A stretch of 64,000 nt of DNA, from assembly GCF_006345805.1 (NCBI RefSeq), contig NC_043004.1, positions 59,148,001-59,212,000 of the forward strand. The letters run 5' to 3'. Position 1 is the stretch's first letter. Each line of letters starts with the position of its first letter. The notes beneath the pieces are model-generated. The model saw only the letters and a list, made by a program, of their open reading frames with translations, searched no databases and was not told where the DNA came from. Shown piece after piece: positions 9,925 to 64,000 of the stretch. Position numbers and translations under genes: made by a program. This DNA is from Octopus sinensis (Eukaryota).

Positions 9925-10320
9925 GTCACTGAAATCGACTACGGCGACCAAGAGAAAGCATTTACTTTATTACTTCAATTGGATGAAAGGTAATGTCGAT
10001 CTGGGTTAAATTTGAACGCAGAACGTAAAGACGGGCGAATTACCACTTAGCATTATACCTACCGCGCTAAAAATTTAGTCAGCTCACCGCCTCGCTTATA
10101 GGAATATAATGTTATTATATGTTGGCTCAAGGCCAGCAATTTCGGGAGAGGGATCAAATCGTTTACATCGACCTCAGTGTTCAACTTGTGTCTGTTTTAT
10201 CGTTCCCGATGGCATGAAAGGCAAAGTCGACCACGACTCAATTTGAACTCTCAATGTTAAGACGGCGAAATGCCGCTAAGCATTCTATCCAGTGTGCTAA
10301 TGATTCTGCCACTTCACTAC
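9925..10320 (-). mobile_element. two degenerate SINE family A copies
   Basis: Reverse-complement motifs gatgaaagg..aagtcgac..atttgaactc..aatgccgctaagcatt..gattctgcca. Confidence 0.8.
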
Positions 10321-10321
10321 C

Positions 10322-11550
10322 TTGCTTGACCAACTTACTAGTAATGGAAGAATTGGTGACGCGCATCCTCGATGATAGTGATGCTGTTGACATCGTTTTA
10401 TTGGACTTTGCCAAAGCTTTTGACTCGGTAAACCACCGCCTATTACTTGTCAAGCTTCAAGCATATAGTTTCCATCCGGATATTGTACGATGGGTTGGTG
10501 CCTTCCTCTCAGATCGCTCCTTCCAAGTCCAAGTTAATGGCTCGCGGTCCGACGTCTCCAGTGCGAGCAGTGGCGTGCCTCAAGGTTCAGTGCTTGGGCC
10601 CTTGTAGTTCTTAGTCTTCATAAATGACTTGCCCGACGACCTCACGCAACACACCCTTCTATTTGCCGACGATATCAAACTGGTCGCTCCTCGCGGTAAT
10701 ATAGAGGATCTTCGTCGATGCCTCCACCAAATTTGGAAGTGGTCTAACGATTGGGACCTGTGTCTGAACGTGTCAAAGTGCTGTCATCTGCCTGTCGGCT
10801 CTACTCCTGCAACTCAACTTGATTTCGAGCCGGGTCGTCTGCTGCTGGAGAGGACCGATCAAGTAAAGGACCTGGGTATCTTGGTGGATTCCTCCTTTTC
10901 GCCTTCAGCCCAGTGCATCCATGCTGCCAACAAAGCACGCGGAATTCTGTTCATGATTCGACGGTCATTCGGAATGCTCACCGCAGCCATATTCCTACCA
11001 CTCTATGTCACGCTGGTGAGACCCATATTGGAGTATGGGATTCAAGCCTCTTCTCCGTATCTCCTCAAAGACATACATCATCTCGAAAGAGTTCAGAAGC
11101 TGGCTACCCGCATGGTTCATGGTCTCAATAATTTGTCCTACGAAGAAAGGCTGAGGACGCTCGACCTTTATTCTCTTGAAAAACACCGCCGCCGTGGTGA
11201 TCTCATTCTCGCCCACAACATCATAAGCGGAAAGTGTAACCTCTCGAAAGAGCTGTTCTTCACTCCTGCTCCAGAGCGTCGGCTGCGGGGTCATTCCGAA
11301 AAGCTCTACCTGCGACGATTTCATCTCAATCGAAGGAGAGGAGCTTTCTCCGTCCGGGTTGCGGATCCGTGGAACAAGCTGCCAGACGAGATGGTGAAGA
11401 TGCCGACGACCGCTTTGTTCAAAGCCTCCCTGGACCTCAAGTGGCCTGAACTCTTTACATGAACACCACCCTGTACTTAACTCCATGTCTCCCTACATGG
11501 CCTTGCTATTTGCTTTTGAGCCAAATTAATTAACTAACTAACTAACTAAC
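10322..11550 (+). pseudogene. 5'-truncated CR1-group LINE: reverse transcriptase and C-terminus, 3' UTR with (AACT)n tail
   Basis: Motifs CLTNLL, LDFAKAFDSV, SGVPQGSVLGP, LFADDIKL, RPILEY, LERVQ, RRRGDLI. One in-frame stop at 10605-10607. Tail taactaactaactaac. Confidence 0.93.
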
Positions 11551-21303: not shown

Positions 21304-21376
<73 letters not shown>

Positions 21377-21380
<4 letters not shown>

Positions 21381-23158
21381 TAATAACTCTGCGAAACTTC
21401 TTGACTGTAAGTATGAGATCATGGAGAACCACACTAACTCTGAACAGTGACAGTGAATCCCTAAATGCTGGTGATGTAAAAATTTCGTGTGGCATTTTCC
21501 AGGGTGACTCACTGTCACCACTCCTCTTTTGTTTATCCTTAATACCTCTCTCAAAGCTGCTCAATGACGCGCAGTACGGGTATAAAATGTTTGATAAAAA
21601 TATAAATCATCTCGTTTACATGGATGATTTAAAGCTTTTTGCAAAAAATGATCAACTCAAGGGCTTACTAGCGATAGTCAAACAATTCAGTGACGACATC
21701 AGAATGCAATTCGGCCTCGATAAATGTGCAAAGGCTACCTTTATCAAAGGAAAAATGACAGAAACATCTAACGTTAACCTTGACCAACAGAATGTCATAA
21801 AAGAACTAGACCCAGCGGAGAGCTACAAGTACCTAGGGGTAATTGAAGGGAACGGAATAAGGCATTCAGAGATGAAGGAAAGGATCAGGAGAGAATGCTA
21901 TCGAAGAGTGAGAGCAATACTCAAGACAGAGCTGAATGCAAGAAACAGGATCGAAGCAATCAATGCATTAGCTATACCAGTCGTGACTTACAGTTTCAAT
22001 ATTGTTAACTGGTCAATTACTGAAAAATGTCAGCTCGACAGAAAAATAAGGAAACTGTTAACAATGCATAGAATGCACCACCCTAAGGCAGATACAGAAC
22101 GACTCTATCTGCCAAGAAAAGAGGGAGGCCGTGGTCTTTTGCAACTGGCAATAACAATGAAGATTGCTACAATTGGCCTAGACACCTACCTGAAAAACTC
22201 TGAGGACTGGATGTTAAAACTTGTCTCAAAACATGAAAACAAGAAAGCATCATACTCAGTCACAAAACAGGCAAAGGAATATCTAAGTGAATTCCGAATA
22301 CAACCAATTTCGGAATTAGAGATAGATATACAAGAAACAAGCACAGAAAAAGCTAGGCGCATGAAAACCCGTGCCAAAACTGCGGCCTTAGATATTCTGA
22401 ATAATAAATGGCAAGAAAAACCTCTCTATGGCAAATACCCAAAGAGAGCGAATAATGCAGATATCGACAAAGCCCTGACCCATCAATGGCTAATGGCCTC
22501 TGGCTTAAAATCTGAAACAGAGGGGTTTATCATAGCAGCTCAAGATCAATGCCTACCAACAAGAAACTACCAGGCCAACATATTAAAGATCAGAAGCAGT
22601 CCAACGTGTCGTGTATGCAAGCAACAAAATGAAACCATTGACCATGTGGTCTCCAAGTGCAGTCTTCTAGCGCCTACAGAGTATCTCAACGATAGAGCTG
22701 CACAATATATTCACTGGGTAATCTGTAAAAACCTGGATTTGCCCCATGAAAAAAACTGGTGGGAACACAAACCATCCCCAGTCCTTGAAAATGACCACAT
22801 CTCACTCCTCTGGAACTTCACCATTCAAACTGACAGGAAGATAGATGCAAATAGGCCAGACATCATATTGAAAGACTTCAAACAAAGAACATGCCTCCTC
22901 ATTGATATGACTGTCCCAATCGATATAAAGACCTACCAAAAACTGAGCAAATATAAAGATCTTGAAATAGAAATCAGCAAAATGTGGAAGCTGAAGACTA
23001 AAACAATACCTGTTGTCATAGGTGCCCTGGGAATGATAGCAAAAGGGGCTGATAGCTACCTAACTCAGATACCAGGAAACCCAAAAATGGCAGAAGTTCA
23101 ACAAAAGATAGTGCTCATGGGAACTGCTCATATCCTACGCAAAATACTCTCTATGTAA
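21377..23158 (+). CDS. R4/Dong-type non-LTR retrotransposon ORF (5'-truncated): RT, CCHC knuckle and restriction-like endonuclease
   Basis: GIFQGDSLSP, YMDDLK, YKYLG, GGRGL, CRVCKQQNETIDHVVSKC, RPDIILKD...IDMTVP...KLSKYKDL, PVVIGALG. The ATG is supplied by the flanking (ATA)n. Confidence 0.93.
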
Positions 23159-48183: not shown

Positions 48184-48825
48184 GACATTTTAAAAACATT
48201 ATAGCCAGGAGATTTGGACTGCATCCATGTCCCCTTATTGGGTCCACGAATTTGGTGGGATGGAGGGGTAAAAGTTATTCCGAAATCAAAAACCGAGCCA
48301 AAATCTTGCAACAGAATCGACTTTGGTTAAAGACATCTAAGGTTCAAGATGACCGTATGAGACCGGAAAAATGGTCTTGTATTTTACAATTGCTCACAGA
48401 CCCTTATAAGTGTCGCCCGCTGACACTCGTTGATGCTACATAGGCGACAGCATGATTTGAACCCCGAACTCAAAGAGTCGGAATAAATATTGCAAGGCAT
48501 CCTGTCCAACGCCCTCATATTTGCGCCACTCCACCAACCTAAACCTGAAACCTTTTTCTGAGACTCACCAAAGAGTTGTCTAAAAGGACTGAACATACCT
48601 ACCTCAGAATTATTCCCCTAAGACTCTCTAGCAGGCGAGATCATCTTAACATTTTATCCATTCGAATCGATAAAATAGCACCAATAGAAAATTCGCTTAT
48701 CACTAACACTTGGGCACTTTGACGAGAGTTTAGTATGTTGCAAGCATACGTCTCCTATAAATTGTTGTATATCTATGTAAACACGCTAATACTTCTGAAG
48801 CCACAAAACTTAAAGAAACACAAAC

Positions 48826-48976
48826 GTGGCTGTGTGGTAAGTAGCTTGCTTACCAACAACATGGTTCCGGGTTCAGTCCCACTGCGTGGCATCTTGGGCA
48901 AGTGTCTTCTGCTATAGCCCCGACCAATGCCCTGTGAGTGGATTTGGTAGACGGAAACTGAAAGAAGCCTGTCGTA

Positions 48977-49025
<49 letters not shown>

Positions 49026-49240
49026 TTGTGTGTCTGTGTTTGTTCCCCTAGCATTGCTTGACAACCGATGCTGGTGTGTTTACGTCCCCGTCACTTAGCG
49101 GTTCGGTAAAAGAGACCGATAGAATAAGTACTGGGCTTACAAAGAATAAGTACCGGGGTCGATTTGTTCGACTAAAGGCGGTGCTCCAGCATGGCCGCAG
49201 TCAGATGACTGAAACAAGTAAAAGAGTAAACAGAGTAAAC
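48826..49240 (+). mobile_element. SINE family B, near full length
   Basis: gtggctgtgtggtaagtagcttgc..ggttcagtccc..cttgggcaagtgtcttct..(TA/TG)n..gactgaaacaagtaaaagagtaaa. Confidence 0.93.
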
Positions 49241-49314: not shown

Positions 49315-49615
49315 ATCCCTTCGCTGTGTGGTCTTTGCGGGTAGTTGTTAATGATGTCACAACCAAACCTCGACTCCTCTCTCGGTCTCCTGCTGCTCCG
49401 TGTGACTTGACTGTCCCTTCTTTGATGTCACAAGCTCATCGTTTCCTTACCCTGCCTTTCTTTCGTTTACATTCCGCTGTGCCCTGCAGTATAGTCTTTG
49501 CTCGTTCGGGGCTTCTCGTGACGCGGCCATAGCATTCCAGTTTCCTTGATTTTACAATTGCTCACAGACCCTTATAAGTGTCGCCCGCTGACACTCGTTG
49601 ATGCTACATCGAAGA
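49315..49615 (-). pseudogene. RTE-like LINE 3' relic
   Basis: VKSRKLECYGRVTRSPERAKTILQGTAECKRKKGR resembles RKL.W.GHV.R....KTILQG...G.R..GR. Confidence 0.7.
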
Positions 49616-50476
49616 GGCCAGGAAACAGAAGAAAGAAGACATGCACCCAACACCAGAAATGAAGATCCCTTCGAAAGTGGGGCTCCGCCATGTCAAAACG
49701 GTAGAGGAGCAGGAGCCGAAACCGGACGTGGTTCCTCCTGATGATGTCTTGAGCTAACTAGATCCTATAAAGGGGCTGTTGTGGTAGCATACCACGAAAC
49801 ACGGTTGAAATTCCTTCCAATAGCCTGGGTTATTCTCACCCTCACTTTGTTAGACGTCACACGTACGCTGTATACGATATCTAGATACCTAGGAGTTGTC
49901 TATAACATCAAATCTCCATTAGGCTTACCTTGGAAGCTTGGACATAAATCGAAACACACACATACACACACATGTACACAGACGCAAATACACACACACA
50001 CACGCGGGCATACATACAAGTCTGCAGGTGACGAGCGACTGTAAATTGAAGCATAAAACATGCAGAAGCTTTACGCATGCAGAGGCATAGCGAATCAAGT
50101 GTATATCCGTAGAAATCTGCGTTTTATCGAAATGTTTCCTTTAAACTGCTGAATGCAAAAATATTTATCCATATGCAAAGATATTTCAATATAGCTACTA
50201 TTAGCTACACCCCAACCCCCCAGTAGAAATACATACGTACACACATATACGCACACATACATACTTACATACATACATACACACATACATACATACACAC
50301 ATACATAGTTACACGTGTATATATATATGTATATATATATATATATATATATTGTATAGAGGGCATTATTACACATAAATGCCTCACACTAGGAGGGACA
50401 AAGTCATTACTACCAAAATTATACTAATCATACCCAAATGCAGTTTTTCAAAGCAAGACATTTAAAAAATGAATTT

Positions 50477-50534
50477 AGTTCTGTATCACCGTGATTTCAC
50501 ATTCAACTTACGTCTAATGATCATCAGCAGAACT
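50477..50534 (-). ncRNA. intact type I hammerhead ribozyme (mirror copy)
   Basis: Exact reverse complement of 50622-50679. Confidence 0.85.
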
Positions 50535-50621
50535 GATTCCATGTGCTTGGCCGGAGTGAGCAGTTGTCTGTTCGTCTTCGCTACGTAAGGTTGGTAGTTT
50601 ATTTATGATGTGTTCAGAATC

Positions 50622-50679
50622 AGTTCTGCTGATGATCATTAGACGTAAGTTGAATGTGAAATCACGGTGATACAGAACT
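50622..50679 (+). ncRNA. intact type I hammerhead ribozyme
   Basis: AGTTCTG-CTGATGA-t-CATTAGAC-GTAA-GTTGAATG-t-GAA-ATCAC-G-GTGAT-A|CAGAACT. 7-bp stem I, GNRA-capped stem II, near-palindromic stem III; AUA cleavage after 50672. Confidence 0.85.
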
Positions 50680-50948
50680 AAATTCATTTTTTAAATGTCT
50701 TGCTTTGAAAAACTGCATTTGGGTATGATTAGTATAATTTTGGTAGTAATGACTTTGTCCCTCCTAGTGTGAGGCATTTATGTGTAATAATGCCCTCTAT
50801 ACAATATAGATATAATTAATTTGTTCAAAAGAAAAAATTATTTTCGAATTCTTTTCTTTTATGAGGTTTTCACGCTAGCTACCCGATAATTTCTTGTTAA
50901 GATCCCTTATTAAGAGATTATCCTTAATTGTTAAACTTATATATATAT

Positions 50949-51056
<108 letters not shown>

Positions 51057-51501
51057 ATATATATGGATATAGAATGAAGGTTAGGCCTAAGAACTTGTGG
51101 TGGAGATCAACACAAAAGGAACTAGAGAAAGGGGGACATTCATGGCAGAGTATAAGTACAGAAGTGAAGAATTATGCGACATGGAGTTCAATTATAAGTG
51201 ACCTATCCTCCTCGTTGGAGGGATAAAGGCAGAAAAAAATGTACACACATACAAAAAATAAAGCTTGCCATTTTTAGTTCTAGAGTTCATTGAGTATGAA
51301 GGAATATTTTAATGCAAAAAGCAATGCAAGCTACGCTGTATCTATATATCTACTTATATATCTACTTATAACTCTTGGGCCTTGTCTAATGAGCTCAAAG
51401 TAACAACTTCAAGGATGTATATTTCGTTACCACAACCAACGCGAGTAATTCTTTGGCTATACGTGCATGACTTGACTACCGCCAGAAAAGTTAGCGTATT
51501 A

Positions 51502-51732
51502 CTCTTTTACTCTTTTACTTGTTTCAGTCATTTGACTGCAGCCATGCTGGAGCACCGCCTTTAGTCGAGCAAATCGACCCCGGGACTTATTCTTTGTAAG
51601 TCTAGTATATACTCCATCGGTCTCTTTTGCTGAACCATTGAGTTACGGGGACGTAAATACACCAGCATCGGTTGTCAAGCGATGTTCGGAGGGTGGGGGT
51701 GGACAAACACAGATACACAAACACAAAGACAT

Positions 51733-51785
<53 letters not shown>

Positions 51786-51918
51786 CGACGGGCTTCTTTC
51801 AGTTTCAGTCTACCAAATCCATTCACAAGGACTTGGTCGGTCCGAGGCTATAGTAGAAGACACTTGCCCAAGGTGCAAGGCAGTGGGATTGAACCCGGAA
51901 CCATGTGGTTTGTAAGCA
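51502..51918 (-). mobile_element. SINE family B
   Basis: Homologous to 23441-23830. Confidence 0.92.
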
Positions 51919-60740: not shown

Positions 60741-60867
60741 GAAGAAGAAGAAGAAGAAGAAGAAGAGGAAGAGGAAGGAGAAGAAGAAGGAGAAGAAGAA
60801 GTAGGAGGAGAAGAAGAAGTAGAAGAAGAAGAAGAAGAAGAAGTAGAAGAGGAAGAAGGAGAAGTAG

Positions 60868-60898
<31 letters not shown>

Positions 60899-62325
60899 GG
60901 AAGAGGAATGAGATTAAGAAGAAGAAGAGGAGGGAGAAGGAGAAGAAATAGAAGTAGAAGAAGAAGAAGTAGAAGAAGAAAAAAGAAGAAGTGGAGGGGA
61001 AGTAGTAGAAGTAGAAGAAGAAGAAGAGGAAGGAGGAGAAGAAAAAGAAGAAGTAGAAGAAGAAAAAAGAAGAAGTGGAGGGGAAGTAGTAGAAGTAGAA
61101 GAAGAAGTAGAAGAAGAAGAGGAAGGAGGAGAAGAAAAAGAAGAAGTAGAAGAAGAAAAAAGAAGAAGTGGAGGGGAAGTAGTAGAAGTAGAAGAAGAAG
61201 TAGAAGAAGAAGAGGAAGGAGGAGAAGAAAAAGAAGAAGTAGAAGAAGAAAAAAGAAGAAGTGGAGGGGAAGTAGTAGAAGTAGAAGAAGAAGTAGAAGA
61301 AGAAGAGGAAGGAGGAGAAGAAAAAGAAGAAGTAGAAGAAGAAAAAAGAAGAAGTGGCGGGGAAGTAGTAGAAGTAGAAGAAGAAGTAGAAGAAAAGAGA
61401 AGGGAGGAGAGAAAAAGAAGAAGTAGAAGAAGAAAAAAAGAAGTGGAGGGGAAGTAGTAGAAGTAGAAGAAGAAGAGAAGAAGAAGAGGAAGGAGGAGAA
61501 GAAAAAGAAGAAGTAGAAGAAGAAAAAAGAAGAAGTGGAGGGGAGTAGTAGAAGTAGAAGAAGAAATAGAAGAAGAAGAGGAAGAGGAGAAGAAAAAGAA
61601 GAAGTAGAATAAGAACAAAAGAAGAAGGGAGGAAGAAAAAAGAAGAAGTGGAGGAGAAGTAGTAGAAGTAGAAGAGAAGTAGAAGAAGAAGAGGAAGGAG
61701 GAGAAGAAAAAGAAGAAGTAGAAGAAGAAAAAAGAAGAAGTGGCGGGGAAGTAGTAGAAGTAGAAGAAGAAGTAGAAGAAGAAGAGGAAGGAGGAGAAGA
61801 AAAAGAAGAAGTAGAAGAAGAAAAAAGAAGAAGTGGAGGGGAAGTAGTAGAAGTAGAAGAAGAAGAAGAAGAAGAAGAGGAAGGAGGAGAAGAAAAAGAA
61901 GAAGTAGAAGAAGAAAAAAGAAGAAGTGGAGGGGAAGTAGTAGAAGTAGAAGAAGAAGTAGAAGAAGAAGAGGAAGGAGGAGAAGAAAAAGAAGAAGTAG
62001 AAGAAGAAAAAAGAAGAAGTGGAGGAAGAAAAAAGAAGAAGTGGAGGAGAAGTAGTAGAAGTAGAAGAAGAAGTAGAAGAAGAAGAGGAAGGAGGAGAAG
62101 AAAAAGAAGAAGTAGAAGAAGAAAAAAGAAGAAGTGGAGGGGAAGTAGTAGAAGTAGAAGAAGAAGAAGAAGAAGAAGAGGAAGGAGGAGAAGAAAAAGA
62201 AGAAGTAGAAGAAGAAAAAAGAAGAAGTGGAGGAGAAGTAGTAGAAGTAGAAGAAGAAGAAGAAAGAAGAAGAAGAAGAAGAAGAAGAAGAAAGAAGAAG
62301 AAGAAGAAGAAGAAGAAGAAGAAGA
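60741..62325. repeat. purine-rich array: (GAA)n flanks with a 93-bp minisatellite core
   Basis: The gtgg(a/c)gggga anchor recurs at 61075, 61168, 61261 and 61354. Confidence 0.93.
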
Positions 62326-64000
62326 TAAAAACAGCAGTAACGGTGGCAGCGACATAAACCATGGTAGAGGCATCGGAAGAAGAAGAAGAACAACATCAAT
62401 CCGGGCTGCGAATGGAATAGAGATAGCAGTAGTAGTAGCATGGGTGGCAGCGATGGAAGCAGCAGGAACAGCAGTAAGAATTCCCTGAGAGTAGCAGTAG
62501 GAACTTTTTGCCCTCACACTGCATGATGAATCCTTAAAATTTGCGGATGCAATTAGATTTAAGGAAACGGAAGGGAGTAGGGCAGCGCTTTCCCTACTCT
62601 TCCTGAAACTGTCACTGAAATTGATAAGAAAACCGCTAAATTTATATTCGTCAGCGTTCAAGGTAGGCGACTGGAAATTGTCACCAACACCCAAATTGAA
62701 AGGGCCCTCCATGATATATACAGGACATTGGCCATGTCTAAGGGCAAAGAAATTCGCTTGGGGGCGAGGTCTTATTTGAGTCTGATGCTTTTGTAATCCA
62801 ACACGAATTTGCCGCTTCCCATATTGATGATTTAGTTTCCTTCCTTATTTATGTAAAATCGGAGCGGAGAATATAGGCGACGGCAGGGTCTCATCAGGAT
62901 TAGAACCATGGTGGTTACCTGCATCAAAGTGCAGGTAACCACCAAAGAACAAAGAAAAAAGCAGGTCACAACAAAAGCAGGAAAGAGGCAAGAAATGCTT
63001 CACCACTGCAAATATCATCACTGCTAAAACAAAAGAAAATATGAGATTGTGCAACAATAGGAACACTATTACCTGTAGCAGCAATGTAAGAAAGAGAGAA
63101 AAGATAATAAATTCGCGATCAACAACATCAGGAAAATTGACAACACCCGCAATTGCAGCAGAAACCTGGAAAATAGCAACAGCCGTAATACCAAAGCAGC
63201 TCCGTCCGTAGTAGCTACAGAGACTATGGACATTCATAAATAATCGCTGACCAGTTGACATTCCAGCCTTACTCTCCCTCCTCCTAACCATGTTTCCCCA
63301 CTACACACATGCAAAATCACAAATATAATCACCGGAGGAAACATTGCCTTTATTCCCATCCGAGGCTGAGTCTTCAGGCCAAACATCAAATGATGAGGAG
63401 GAGAGGCATAAGGAAAGAAAAAAAGGAAAAAATAATCAAAGCACAAAAGAAATTAAGAAGTTCAAAACAACACCAACGCAACATTGATCCTAAACAAACT
63501 AAAATCTTCAAAAACAAATACGATATGGCCGTGAGTACCACTCTAATAACAGCAATCAAAGGTCAACAATCAAAAGCAAAACAGCGTAATTGGTGCAGGC
63601 ATGGTTGTGGTGTAAGAAGCGCGCTTTGGATTCACGTGATCTTGGGTTCAGAGATGCAGCAGCGCAACTTGGGTAAGTTTCTTTTACCGTAGCCTCGGGG
63701 CGACCGAATCCTTATAAGTGATTCTGGTAAACGGAAATTGTGTGGGACTCCATCGTATATATGTACATCGTTGTCGTCGTCGGCGGCAGCGTTTTATCGT
63801 GAGTAGATAATTTATTTGGTTTCTTCTTGACCCCTTCTTCACTTCTGTCCGTGTTTATGCCTCTCATGACTAATGGGACCGATTCTGCCAGGTGCTTAAA
63901 CAGAAGAGATTTGTTTAACAGAATCTACCATTTCCAGTATTTCAGCGTGCTGTGGAATAGATCTTATAACGTTATCATTAGTGCCTGAGGTTTCGAAGCG

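What the first reader, a model, noticed from the sequence alone, without database searches (positions are those of the whole stretch)
50348..50938. Inverted repeat encoding an intact hammerhead ribozyme on both strands
Seen: 192-bp arms with no visible mismatch, each holding a complete type I HHR (CUGAUGA, GAAA, AUA site, 7-bp stem I, GUAA-capped stem II). The two point outward from a 77-nt spacer and are embedded in (TA)n. Known: PLEs integrate with inverted pseudo-LTR copies. Inference: a very young non-coding insertion. A transcript starting in the spacer in either direction could self-cleave. A read-through transcript would instead form a 192-bp duplex that masks the ribozyme and offers an ADAR/Dicer substrate, so cleavage would depend on where transcription starts.
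Basis: partly seen in the sequence, partly recalled or inferred. Interest (0 to 1): 0.75.

Follow-up and report, generated by a model that had tools for sequence, protein, structure and literature searches.

The report
Two-armed hammerhead retrozyme insertion
The palindrome is one short, back-to-back insertion of a young, protein-free 481-base repeat with a predicted self-cutting hammerhead RNA, which sits in TA microsatellites at an estimated 200 or more places in this animal genome and is likely pasted by a Penelope-type retrotransposon enzyme copying one RNA, probably a circle, from both cut DNA ends.

Summary
In detail: two 192-bp arms, 100% complementary, 77 nt apart, each with a type I hammerhead motif. 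But the palindrome is not the unit. It is the overlap of two truncated, head-to-head pieces of a 481-nt non-coding tandem repeat (618 exact 31-mer hits; 0.63% divergence), a non-LTR retrozyme. The 'spacer' is the 5' part of the right arm, which runs on to 50940. In 79 mapped insertions, 64 are head-to-head; all 64 have exactly one arm ending at the long site A, and 59 have the other at short site B (0 A+A, 0 B+B). Both arms share one haplotype (3 of 35 informative sites differ; 91% in shuffles), and arms cross cleavage sites. A sister subfamily (12 of 12) and an autonomous TA-targeting Penelope-like element (3 of 3) follow the same pairing. Likely mechanism: double target-priming on one RNA, probably circular. 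Cleavage, expression and the partner enzyme are not shown. With one hammerhead per strand this copy cannot release a monomer; no evidence for a regulatory switch. Retrozymes and PLE inverted/tail insertions are known; this scan found the same architecture before in this and other genomes.

The parts
50348..50539 (-). Left arm: 5'-truncated retrozyme piece, unit positions 78 to ~269, 3' end at short site B running into (TA)n (end ambiguous to 50342)
50540..50940 (+). Right arm: 5'-truncated retrozyme piece, unit positions 1-403 of the 481-nt unit (natural reference L017:60-540), 3' end at long site A
   Evidence: 99.3% identity to the reference unit
50540..50616 (+).
50622..50679 (+). Predicted type I hammerhead (stem I 50622-50628/50673-50679, CUGAUGA 50629-50635, GAAA 50658-50661, predicted cut after 50672)
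50477..50534 (-). Mirror copy of the hammerhead motif, predicted cut after 50484
50809..50940 (+). One-sided 'tail': unit sequence between site B and site A, present on one arm only
50318..50347 (.). (TA)n target, left side
50941..51064 (.). (TA)n target, right side

Best explanation
This is one short insertion of a young 481-nt non-coding hammerhead repeat (a non-LTR retrozyme), made of two truncated arms joined head to head inside a TA microsatellite, and it was likely made by a Penelope-like reverse transcriptase/endonuclease priming both cut DNA strands on one RNA, probably a circular monomer. Shown: the unit, its tandem arrays, the TA target, two fixed 3' ends used once each per insertion, one haplotype per insertion, arms that run across the cleavage site. 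Inferred: tandem source arrays are transcribed, self-cleave (probably as hammerhead dimers) and are ligated into 481-nt circles; the enzyme cuts both strands of (TA)n; one 3' end starts copying at site A (tightly fixed, 50937-50940 here), the other at the TA-like site B about 130 nt upstream (looser, microhomology-like); each copy runs on, lap after lap, until it stops at a random point; the two 5' ends are joined, mostly through a few shared bases. This copy stopped after 0.8 and 0.4 of a lap, has one hammerhead per strand and so could not release a monomer or circle.
For: Family: >=173 matches at 90-100% identity in 480-nt tandem arrays; unit 481 nt, 33% GC, longest ATG frame 33 aa sense; 618 exact hits of one 31-mer. 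Architecture: 46 A+B, 3 A+other, 0 A+A, 0 B+B among 49 head-to-head of 60 insertions; 13 A+B, 2 A+other, 4 single among 19 further loci; genome-order sample 27 of 33 head-to-head. 103 of 106 A/B ends run into (TA)n. One template: 3 of 35 informative sites differ between arms vs 91% in 5,000 shuffles; 2 of 63 multi-unit arm-by-site cases are mixed; variants private to one insertion lie in both arms in 5 insertions. Not a linear monomer: arms reach ~10 units and only 6 of 103 5' ends lie near the cut (3.6 expected). Arms independent in length (rho 0.10) and 7 of 46 not nested. Sister subfamily 12 of 12 short+long. An autonomous RT + GIY-YIG element that targets (TA)n has short and long 3' ends, paired one each in 3 of 3 scorable head-to-head copies. 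The anole PLE protein cuts and extends both strands and starts at two internal RNA sites (PMC11167929). Unit folds far better than shuffles (z -6.5 linear, -5.9 circular); hammerhead core nearly invariant in 215-223 units.
Against: Cleavage, circles and transcription are not shown here. No autonomous element with significant DNA similarity to the unit was found among 45 PLE loci and the end motifs of the candidate PLE match weakly (best P 0.022, 1 of 8 tests). That PLE is mostly single-armed in the sample (4 of 27 insertions head-to-head within 1.5-kb flanks, a lower bound) and its tail is ~35 nt, not ~130. Haplotype sharing fits two RNAs from one homogeneous source array as well as one circle; column 445, which varies inside two arrays, was left out of that count. 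PMC11167929 saw no difference in start site between the two strands. Near-mirror junctions are slightly enriched (13 of 46 within 40 nt, 7.7 expected, P 0.037), which hints at some fold-back.
Confidence: 0.7

Rival explanations
1. Same element and enzyme, but the template is an uncleaved linear multimer transcript (one, or two from the same source array), not a circle.
For: Source-size arrays exist (up to ~10 units); arrays are homogeneous, so two transcripts of one array would also share a haplotype; in PMC11167929 unprocessed RNA was the main substrate and the ribozyme was dispensable.
Against: Variants private to one insertion run through every covered unit of both arms (5 insertions), though only about a third of loci were sampled; on a single linear RNA arm A should stop where arm B starts, seen in 1 of 46.
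Confidence: 0.2
2. One priming at site A; the first cDNA folds back or switches template to make the second arm, which is then cut or annealed at the TA-like site B (self-priming model proposed for PLEs in PMC3846280).
For: Explains exactly one A end per insertion and one haplotype; B is loose and TA-like (G of the site lost in 41 of 48 B ends; 3 ends at unit 243-248); slight excess of near-mirror junctions; this copy is nested (arm B inside arm A).
Against: 7 of 46 pairs are not nested either way and 13 have B longer than A can supply; nesting is no commoner than in shuffles (7 vs 9.4); 5 single-arm insertions end at B alone.
Confidence: 0.12
3. One reading: a bidirectional cassette whose cleavage depends on the start site, of use to the host.
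For: Read-through RNA is predicted to bury both hammerheads in a 192-bp duplex, a spacer-started RNA leaves stem I partly formed (0.38).
Against: Junctions fall anywhere in the unit; the spacer is ordinary unit sequence; no host gene or start site was found nearby; the copy is too young to show selection.
Confidence: 0.04
4. Fragments of the pseudo-LTR of an autonomous PLE rather than an independent non-coding family.
For: Same footprint as PLE ends (PMC8557442, PMC3846280).
Against: None of 79 insertions continues into an ORF; units follow units; no similarity to 45 PLE loci; two related families are also ORF-less repeats.
Confidence: 0.05
5. Fold-back sequencing or assembly artefact.
For: No contig bridged the junction in 4 runs, which proves nothing.
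Against: Flanks are not mirrored; arms end at two family-wide sites; the rule holds at 64 loci, in a sister family and in a PLE.
Confidence: 0.02

Closest known systems
Metazoan non-LTR retrozymes (Cervera and de la Pena 2020, PMC7229834: passages and Discussion read; Li, Clavereau and Pollet 2026, 10.64898/2026.07.22.740005: parts 1-3 of 5 read)
   Same: Short low-GC non-coding tandem repeat, one type I hammerhead per unit, dispersed arrays; U-U at the base of stem II as in axolotl HHR_Amex2; PLE proposed as mobiliser; tandem cDNA from a circle proposed.
   Different: 481 nt (above the 170-400 nt of the 2020 paper, inside the 51-972 of the preprint). Neither main text describes head-to-head arms, two fixed ends or a (TA)n target ('inverted' 0 times in the 2020 text, once in a reference title in the preprint); the preprint leans to local amplification for arrays. 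Supplements not seen.
Insertion architecture of EN+ Penelope-like elements (PMC8557442 and PMC3846280: passages read; PMC11167929: parts 1-2 of 4 read)
   Same: 5' truncation, partial tandems, inverted 5'-truncated copy head to head, a tail on one end only, AT-rich or microsatellite target, two internal start sites.
   Different: No ORF; tail ~130 nt rather than 30-40; both arms often multimeric; inversion in about four of five insertions; strict one-A-per-insertion pairing is not quantified in the passages read.
L1 twin priming (recalled, not read)
   Same: Two primings, inverted 5' segment, microhomology at the junction.
   Different: Second start is a fixed site and the first arm does not stop at it (1 of 46).

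Membership tests
non-LTR retrozyme | Head-to-tail repeats of a few hundred bases at dispersed loci | tested here: met
   481-nt unit, arrays to ~10 units, 79 insertions mapped; this copy itself holds less than one unit per arm
non-LTR retrozyme | Type I hammerhead motif in each unit | tested here: met
   Core letters nearly invariant in 215-223 units; stem I letters change in pairs across three families, 80% paired vs 67% (max 78%) in shuffles, relatedness not controlled; Rfam gives no hit
non-LTR retrozyme | Non-coding, GC below 45-50% | tested here: met
   GC 33%; longest ATG frame 33 aa sense, 69 aa antisense
non-LTR retrozyme | No LTRs or 4-bp target duplication of LTR retrozymes | tested here: met
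   Ends are internal unit positions abutting (TA)n; a target duplication cannot be read inside TA repeats; PBS/PPT not searched
non-LTR retrozyme | Self-cleavage as monomer or dimer | not testable with these tools
   Predicted active fold 4 kcal/mol above the minimum; stem III self-duplex -11.9 kcal/mol suggests dimer cleavage
non-LTR retrozyme | Expressed as linear and circular monomer RNA | not testable with these tools
   Only assembled contigs were offered
Penelope-like element (autonomous) | ORF with PLE reverse transcriptase and GIY-YIG endonuclease | tested here: not met
   No ORF in the unit or continuing from it
PLE-type insertion footprint | Inverted 5'-truncated copy, one-sided tail, AT-rich target | tested here: met
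   64 of 79 head-to-head, 59 with A+B, 103 of 106 ends in (TA)n
PLE-type insertion footprint | Shared cis sequence with an autonomous PLE of the same genome | tested here: inconclusive
   None significant in 45 loci from the top 150 of 5,029 endonuclease candidates

The most novel reading that the evidence does not exclude
Each insertion is a frozen record of a Penelope-type enzyme priming both ends of a (TA)n break at two programmed, different sites on one circular ribozyme RNA and running round it in two rolling-circle laps. That would be direct genomic evidence that animal retrozymes move through circles, that their tandem arrays are born at insertion, and that the inverted-copy-plus-tail form of PLE insertions comes from asymmetric double priming.
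Probability: 0.45. Interest if true: 0.75.

Novelty: new member of a known kind. Interest (0 to 1): 0.5.

Why it matters
The locus itself is a dead-end copy. The family matters because how retrozymes are mobilised, and how PLEs make inverted copies with a one-sided tail, are both called open in the papers read (PMC7229834, PMC8557442, 10.64898/2026.07.22.740005). A 481-nt RNA with two mapped start sites, a known target and hundreds of near-identical products gives a compact substrate and exact predictions for an in vitro test.

Tried and rejected
Rfam: no hammerhead hit. Expression: no RNA holder listed; contigs of three runs guessed to be RNA and one likely DNA run carry the tandem joint, which cannot tell circle from tandem or RNA from DNA; a low-depth A>G cluster in one run (8 places, several absent from the DNA run) may be alleles or errors. 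Junction bridging: no contig spans 50539/50540 in 4 runs; a hole proves nothing. RNA edits written into copies: private array-wide A>G 3 vs T>C 1, P 0.32; singletons 16 vs 20; not supported in this subfamily. Truncation at the cleavage site: not enriched. Classical single-RNA twin priming: 1 of 46. Compensatory changes among the family's own polymorphisms: not seen as two-sided pairs. Partner hunt: the young 781-aa PLE shares target and end-pairing but no significant sequence; two related repeat families found from loose ends are further retrozymes, not PLEs. Host gene: the Acyl-CoA oxidase hit at 63291-63689 is below cut-off on low-complexity sequence; no gene context established. The sigma-70 scan is irrelevant to a eukaryote and was ignored. 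Literature: 'retrozyme'+'twin priming' 0 papers; octopus/cephalopod + ribozyme searches gave no description of this family in their listings; some searches gave the papers cited.

Full report
Observation. The arms 50348-50539 and 50617-50808 are complementary without mismatch over 192 bp, 77 nt apart. A regex scan of the window gives exactly two type I hammerhead motifs, one in each arm, pointing outward, with predicted cuts at 50672/50673 and 50484/50483. Rfam does not detect them. Only the left arm touches (TA)n; the right arm is followed by 132 nt of other sequence before the TA run.

The unit. Searching the window's own 2.7-Gb genome with 50540-50940 gave 173 matches from 40 scored of 881 candidates, mostly 480 bases apart in tandem. 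The unit is 481 nt (natural reference L017:60-540), 33% GC, without a long frame. One exact 31-mer occurs 618 times; its first 100 hits fall in 33 loci, so about 200 loci is a lower estimate. Substitution divergence from the majority base is 0.63% over 307 full or partial units. The linear monomer folds at z -6.5, the circle at z -5.9. The twelve core hammerhead columns show 2 deviations in 215-223 units each. Two relatives exist: a 474-nt sister, 73% identical, 1,849 exact hits, and an older group, 71-91% identical in pieces, 313 hits. Across the three, stem I letters change in pairs: 80% paired in 27 distinct combinations vs 67% mean and 78% maximum in 2,000 shuffles, a control that ignores relatedness. 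So the window locus is a minus-strand arm (unit 78 to ~269) joined head to head to a plus-strand arm (unit 1-403); the 'spacer' and 50809-50940 are just the parts of the longer arm that the shorter lacks.

Architecture. Of 60 insertions mapped first (one locus dropped because both ends ran off, two overlapping loci merged), 49 are head to head: 46 have one arm ending at site A (unit 396-405) and one at site B (268-288 by alignment; true end mostly <=270), 3 have A plus another end, none A+A or B+B; 11 are single (9 A, 2 B). These were chosen by similarity and the first query favoured A ends. Nineteen more loci taken in genome order gave, read by eye, 13 A+B (one interrupted by a nested insert), 2 A plus an end at unit 243-247, and 4 single. 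In the complete genome-order set of 33 loci, 27 are head to head (24 A+B, 3 A+other). Overall 64 of 64 head-to-head insertions have exactly one A end. 103 of 106 A/B ends run into (TA)n. 5' ends are spread over the unit, not enriched at the cut (6 of 103, 3.6 expected), and arm A stops near site B in 1 of 46. Junctions overlap by a few bases in 35 of 48, are blunt in 3 (this locus is one) and hold extra bases in 10. In the sister family, 25 of 40 fetched loci collapse to 12 head-to-head insertions (one duplicated pair counted twice), all short+long, and 6 single.

Template. At 11 polymorphic columns, the two arms of an insertion differ at 3 of 35 informative sites, against 91% when arms are shuffled among insertions (minimum 25 discordant in 5,000 shuffles); units within an arm are mixed in 2 of 63 cases. 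Column 445, mixed within two arrays, and rarer columns were left out. Five variants found array-wide in a single insertion lie in both of its arms. Arm lengths are uncorrelated and 7 of 46 pairs are not nested (9.4 expected), so those second arms were not copied from the first cDNA. Arms up to ~10 units cross the cleavage site, so the template was a circle or an uncleaved multimer. I favour the circle because private variants run through all units of both arms, but a homogeneous unsampled source array would look the same.

Mobiliser. The genome holds many GIY-YIG elements (147 matches from 150 scored of 5,029 candidates), among them a young family with a 781-aa RT + GIY-YIG frame that ends in (TA)n and has 505 exact hits of a 3' motif. 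It has a short end and a ~35-nt tailed end, paired one each in 3 of 3 head-to-head copies with both ends in view, among 27 insertions. It shares no significant sequence with the unit, so it is a model for the enzyme, not an identified partner. PMC11167929 (parts 1-2 of 4 read) shows a PLE protein cutting and extending both strands, starting at two internal RNA sites that define the tail, with no strand difference in start site. PMC8557442 and PMC3846280 (passages) describe the inverted copy and one-sided tail and leave their origin open; the latter proposes self-priming.

This copy. One hammerhead per strand cannot release a unit. Folding predicts stem III at <=0.01 in all three contexts tried, stem I at 0.93 alone, 0.38 in a spacer-started RNA and 0.0 in read-through; the active fold is -9.1 vs -13.1 kcal/mol, and the near-palindromic stem III pairs between molecules at -11.9. 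Dimer cleavage, as for axolotl retrozymes (PMC7229834), is the likelier mode. No transcription evidence or host gene context was obtained.

Comparison and novelty. It meets the testable features of non-LTR retrozymes and works like a non-autonomous PLE passenger; it is not an autonomous PLE. The main texts of the two retrozyme papers do not describe two-armed insertions, and searches listed no paper on this family; supplements and the non-open PLE literature were not seen and may bear on that. Earlier notes of this scan report the same architecture for other units in this and other genomes (none by sequence), and call the genome an octopus, which I did not test; my architecture and haplotype counts were made before reading them. 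Verdict: real feature, new member of a known kind, with a footprint that makes an open mechanism testable; interest 0.5.

Noticed in passing
L240:3730-5430 (G000:C1:115742229-115743929): 1.7-kb insert inside a retrozyme unit with a duplication of about unit positions 19-37 and a weak CCHC-knuckle frame (E 0.04); 1 of 79 insertions; may be the second retrotransposon that earlier notes describe.
   Followed up: partly
L152:1142-5958 and related loci: Young (TA)n-targeting Penelope-like family, copies about 98% identical, 479-aa upstream frame plus 781-aa RT-CxxC-GIY-YIG frame; no canonical hammerhead found by my scan; short and tailed 3' ends.
   Followed up: partly
L167-L206 and L207-L231: Two related retrozyme families (474 nt; about 500 nt and older) with the homologous short end; hammerhead stem II differs in length among the three.
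   Followed up: partly
L159:7015 (+): Hammerhead-like motif near a second PLE family (775-aa frame on the opposite strand); link not checked.
   Followed up: no
L082:5618-6897: An A end faces a second 55-nt A-ended piece tail to tail across a 14-nt TA run: a later insertion into the same microsatellite.
   Followed up: no
window 48381-48441 and 49549-49609: Exact 61-nt direct repeat 1,168 bases apart, unexplained.
   Followed up: no
window 48920-49230 and 51506-51840: Inverted pair of SINE-like repeats, about 90% complementary, flanking the insertion; a read-through RNA would have this duplex as well.
   Followed up: no
window 21305-23158 (+) and 10218-11462 (+): Reverse-transcriptase frames of LINE-like elements.
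   Followed up: no
window 60741-62325: 1.6-kb (GAA)n array.
   Followed up: no
L017:440-920: Runs under four organism labels hold over half of the unit's words, so close relatives occur beyond one label.
   Followed up: no
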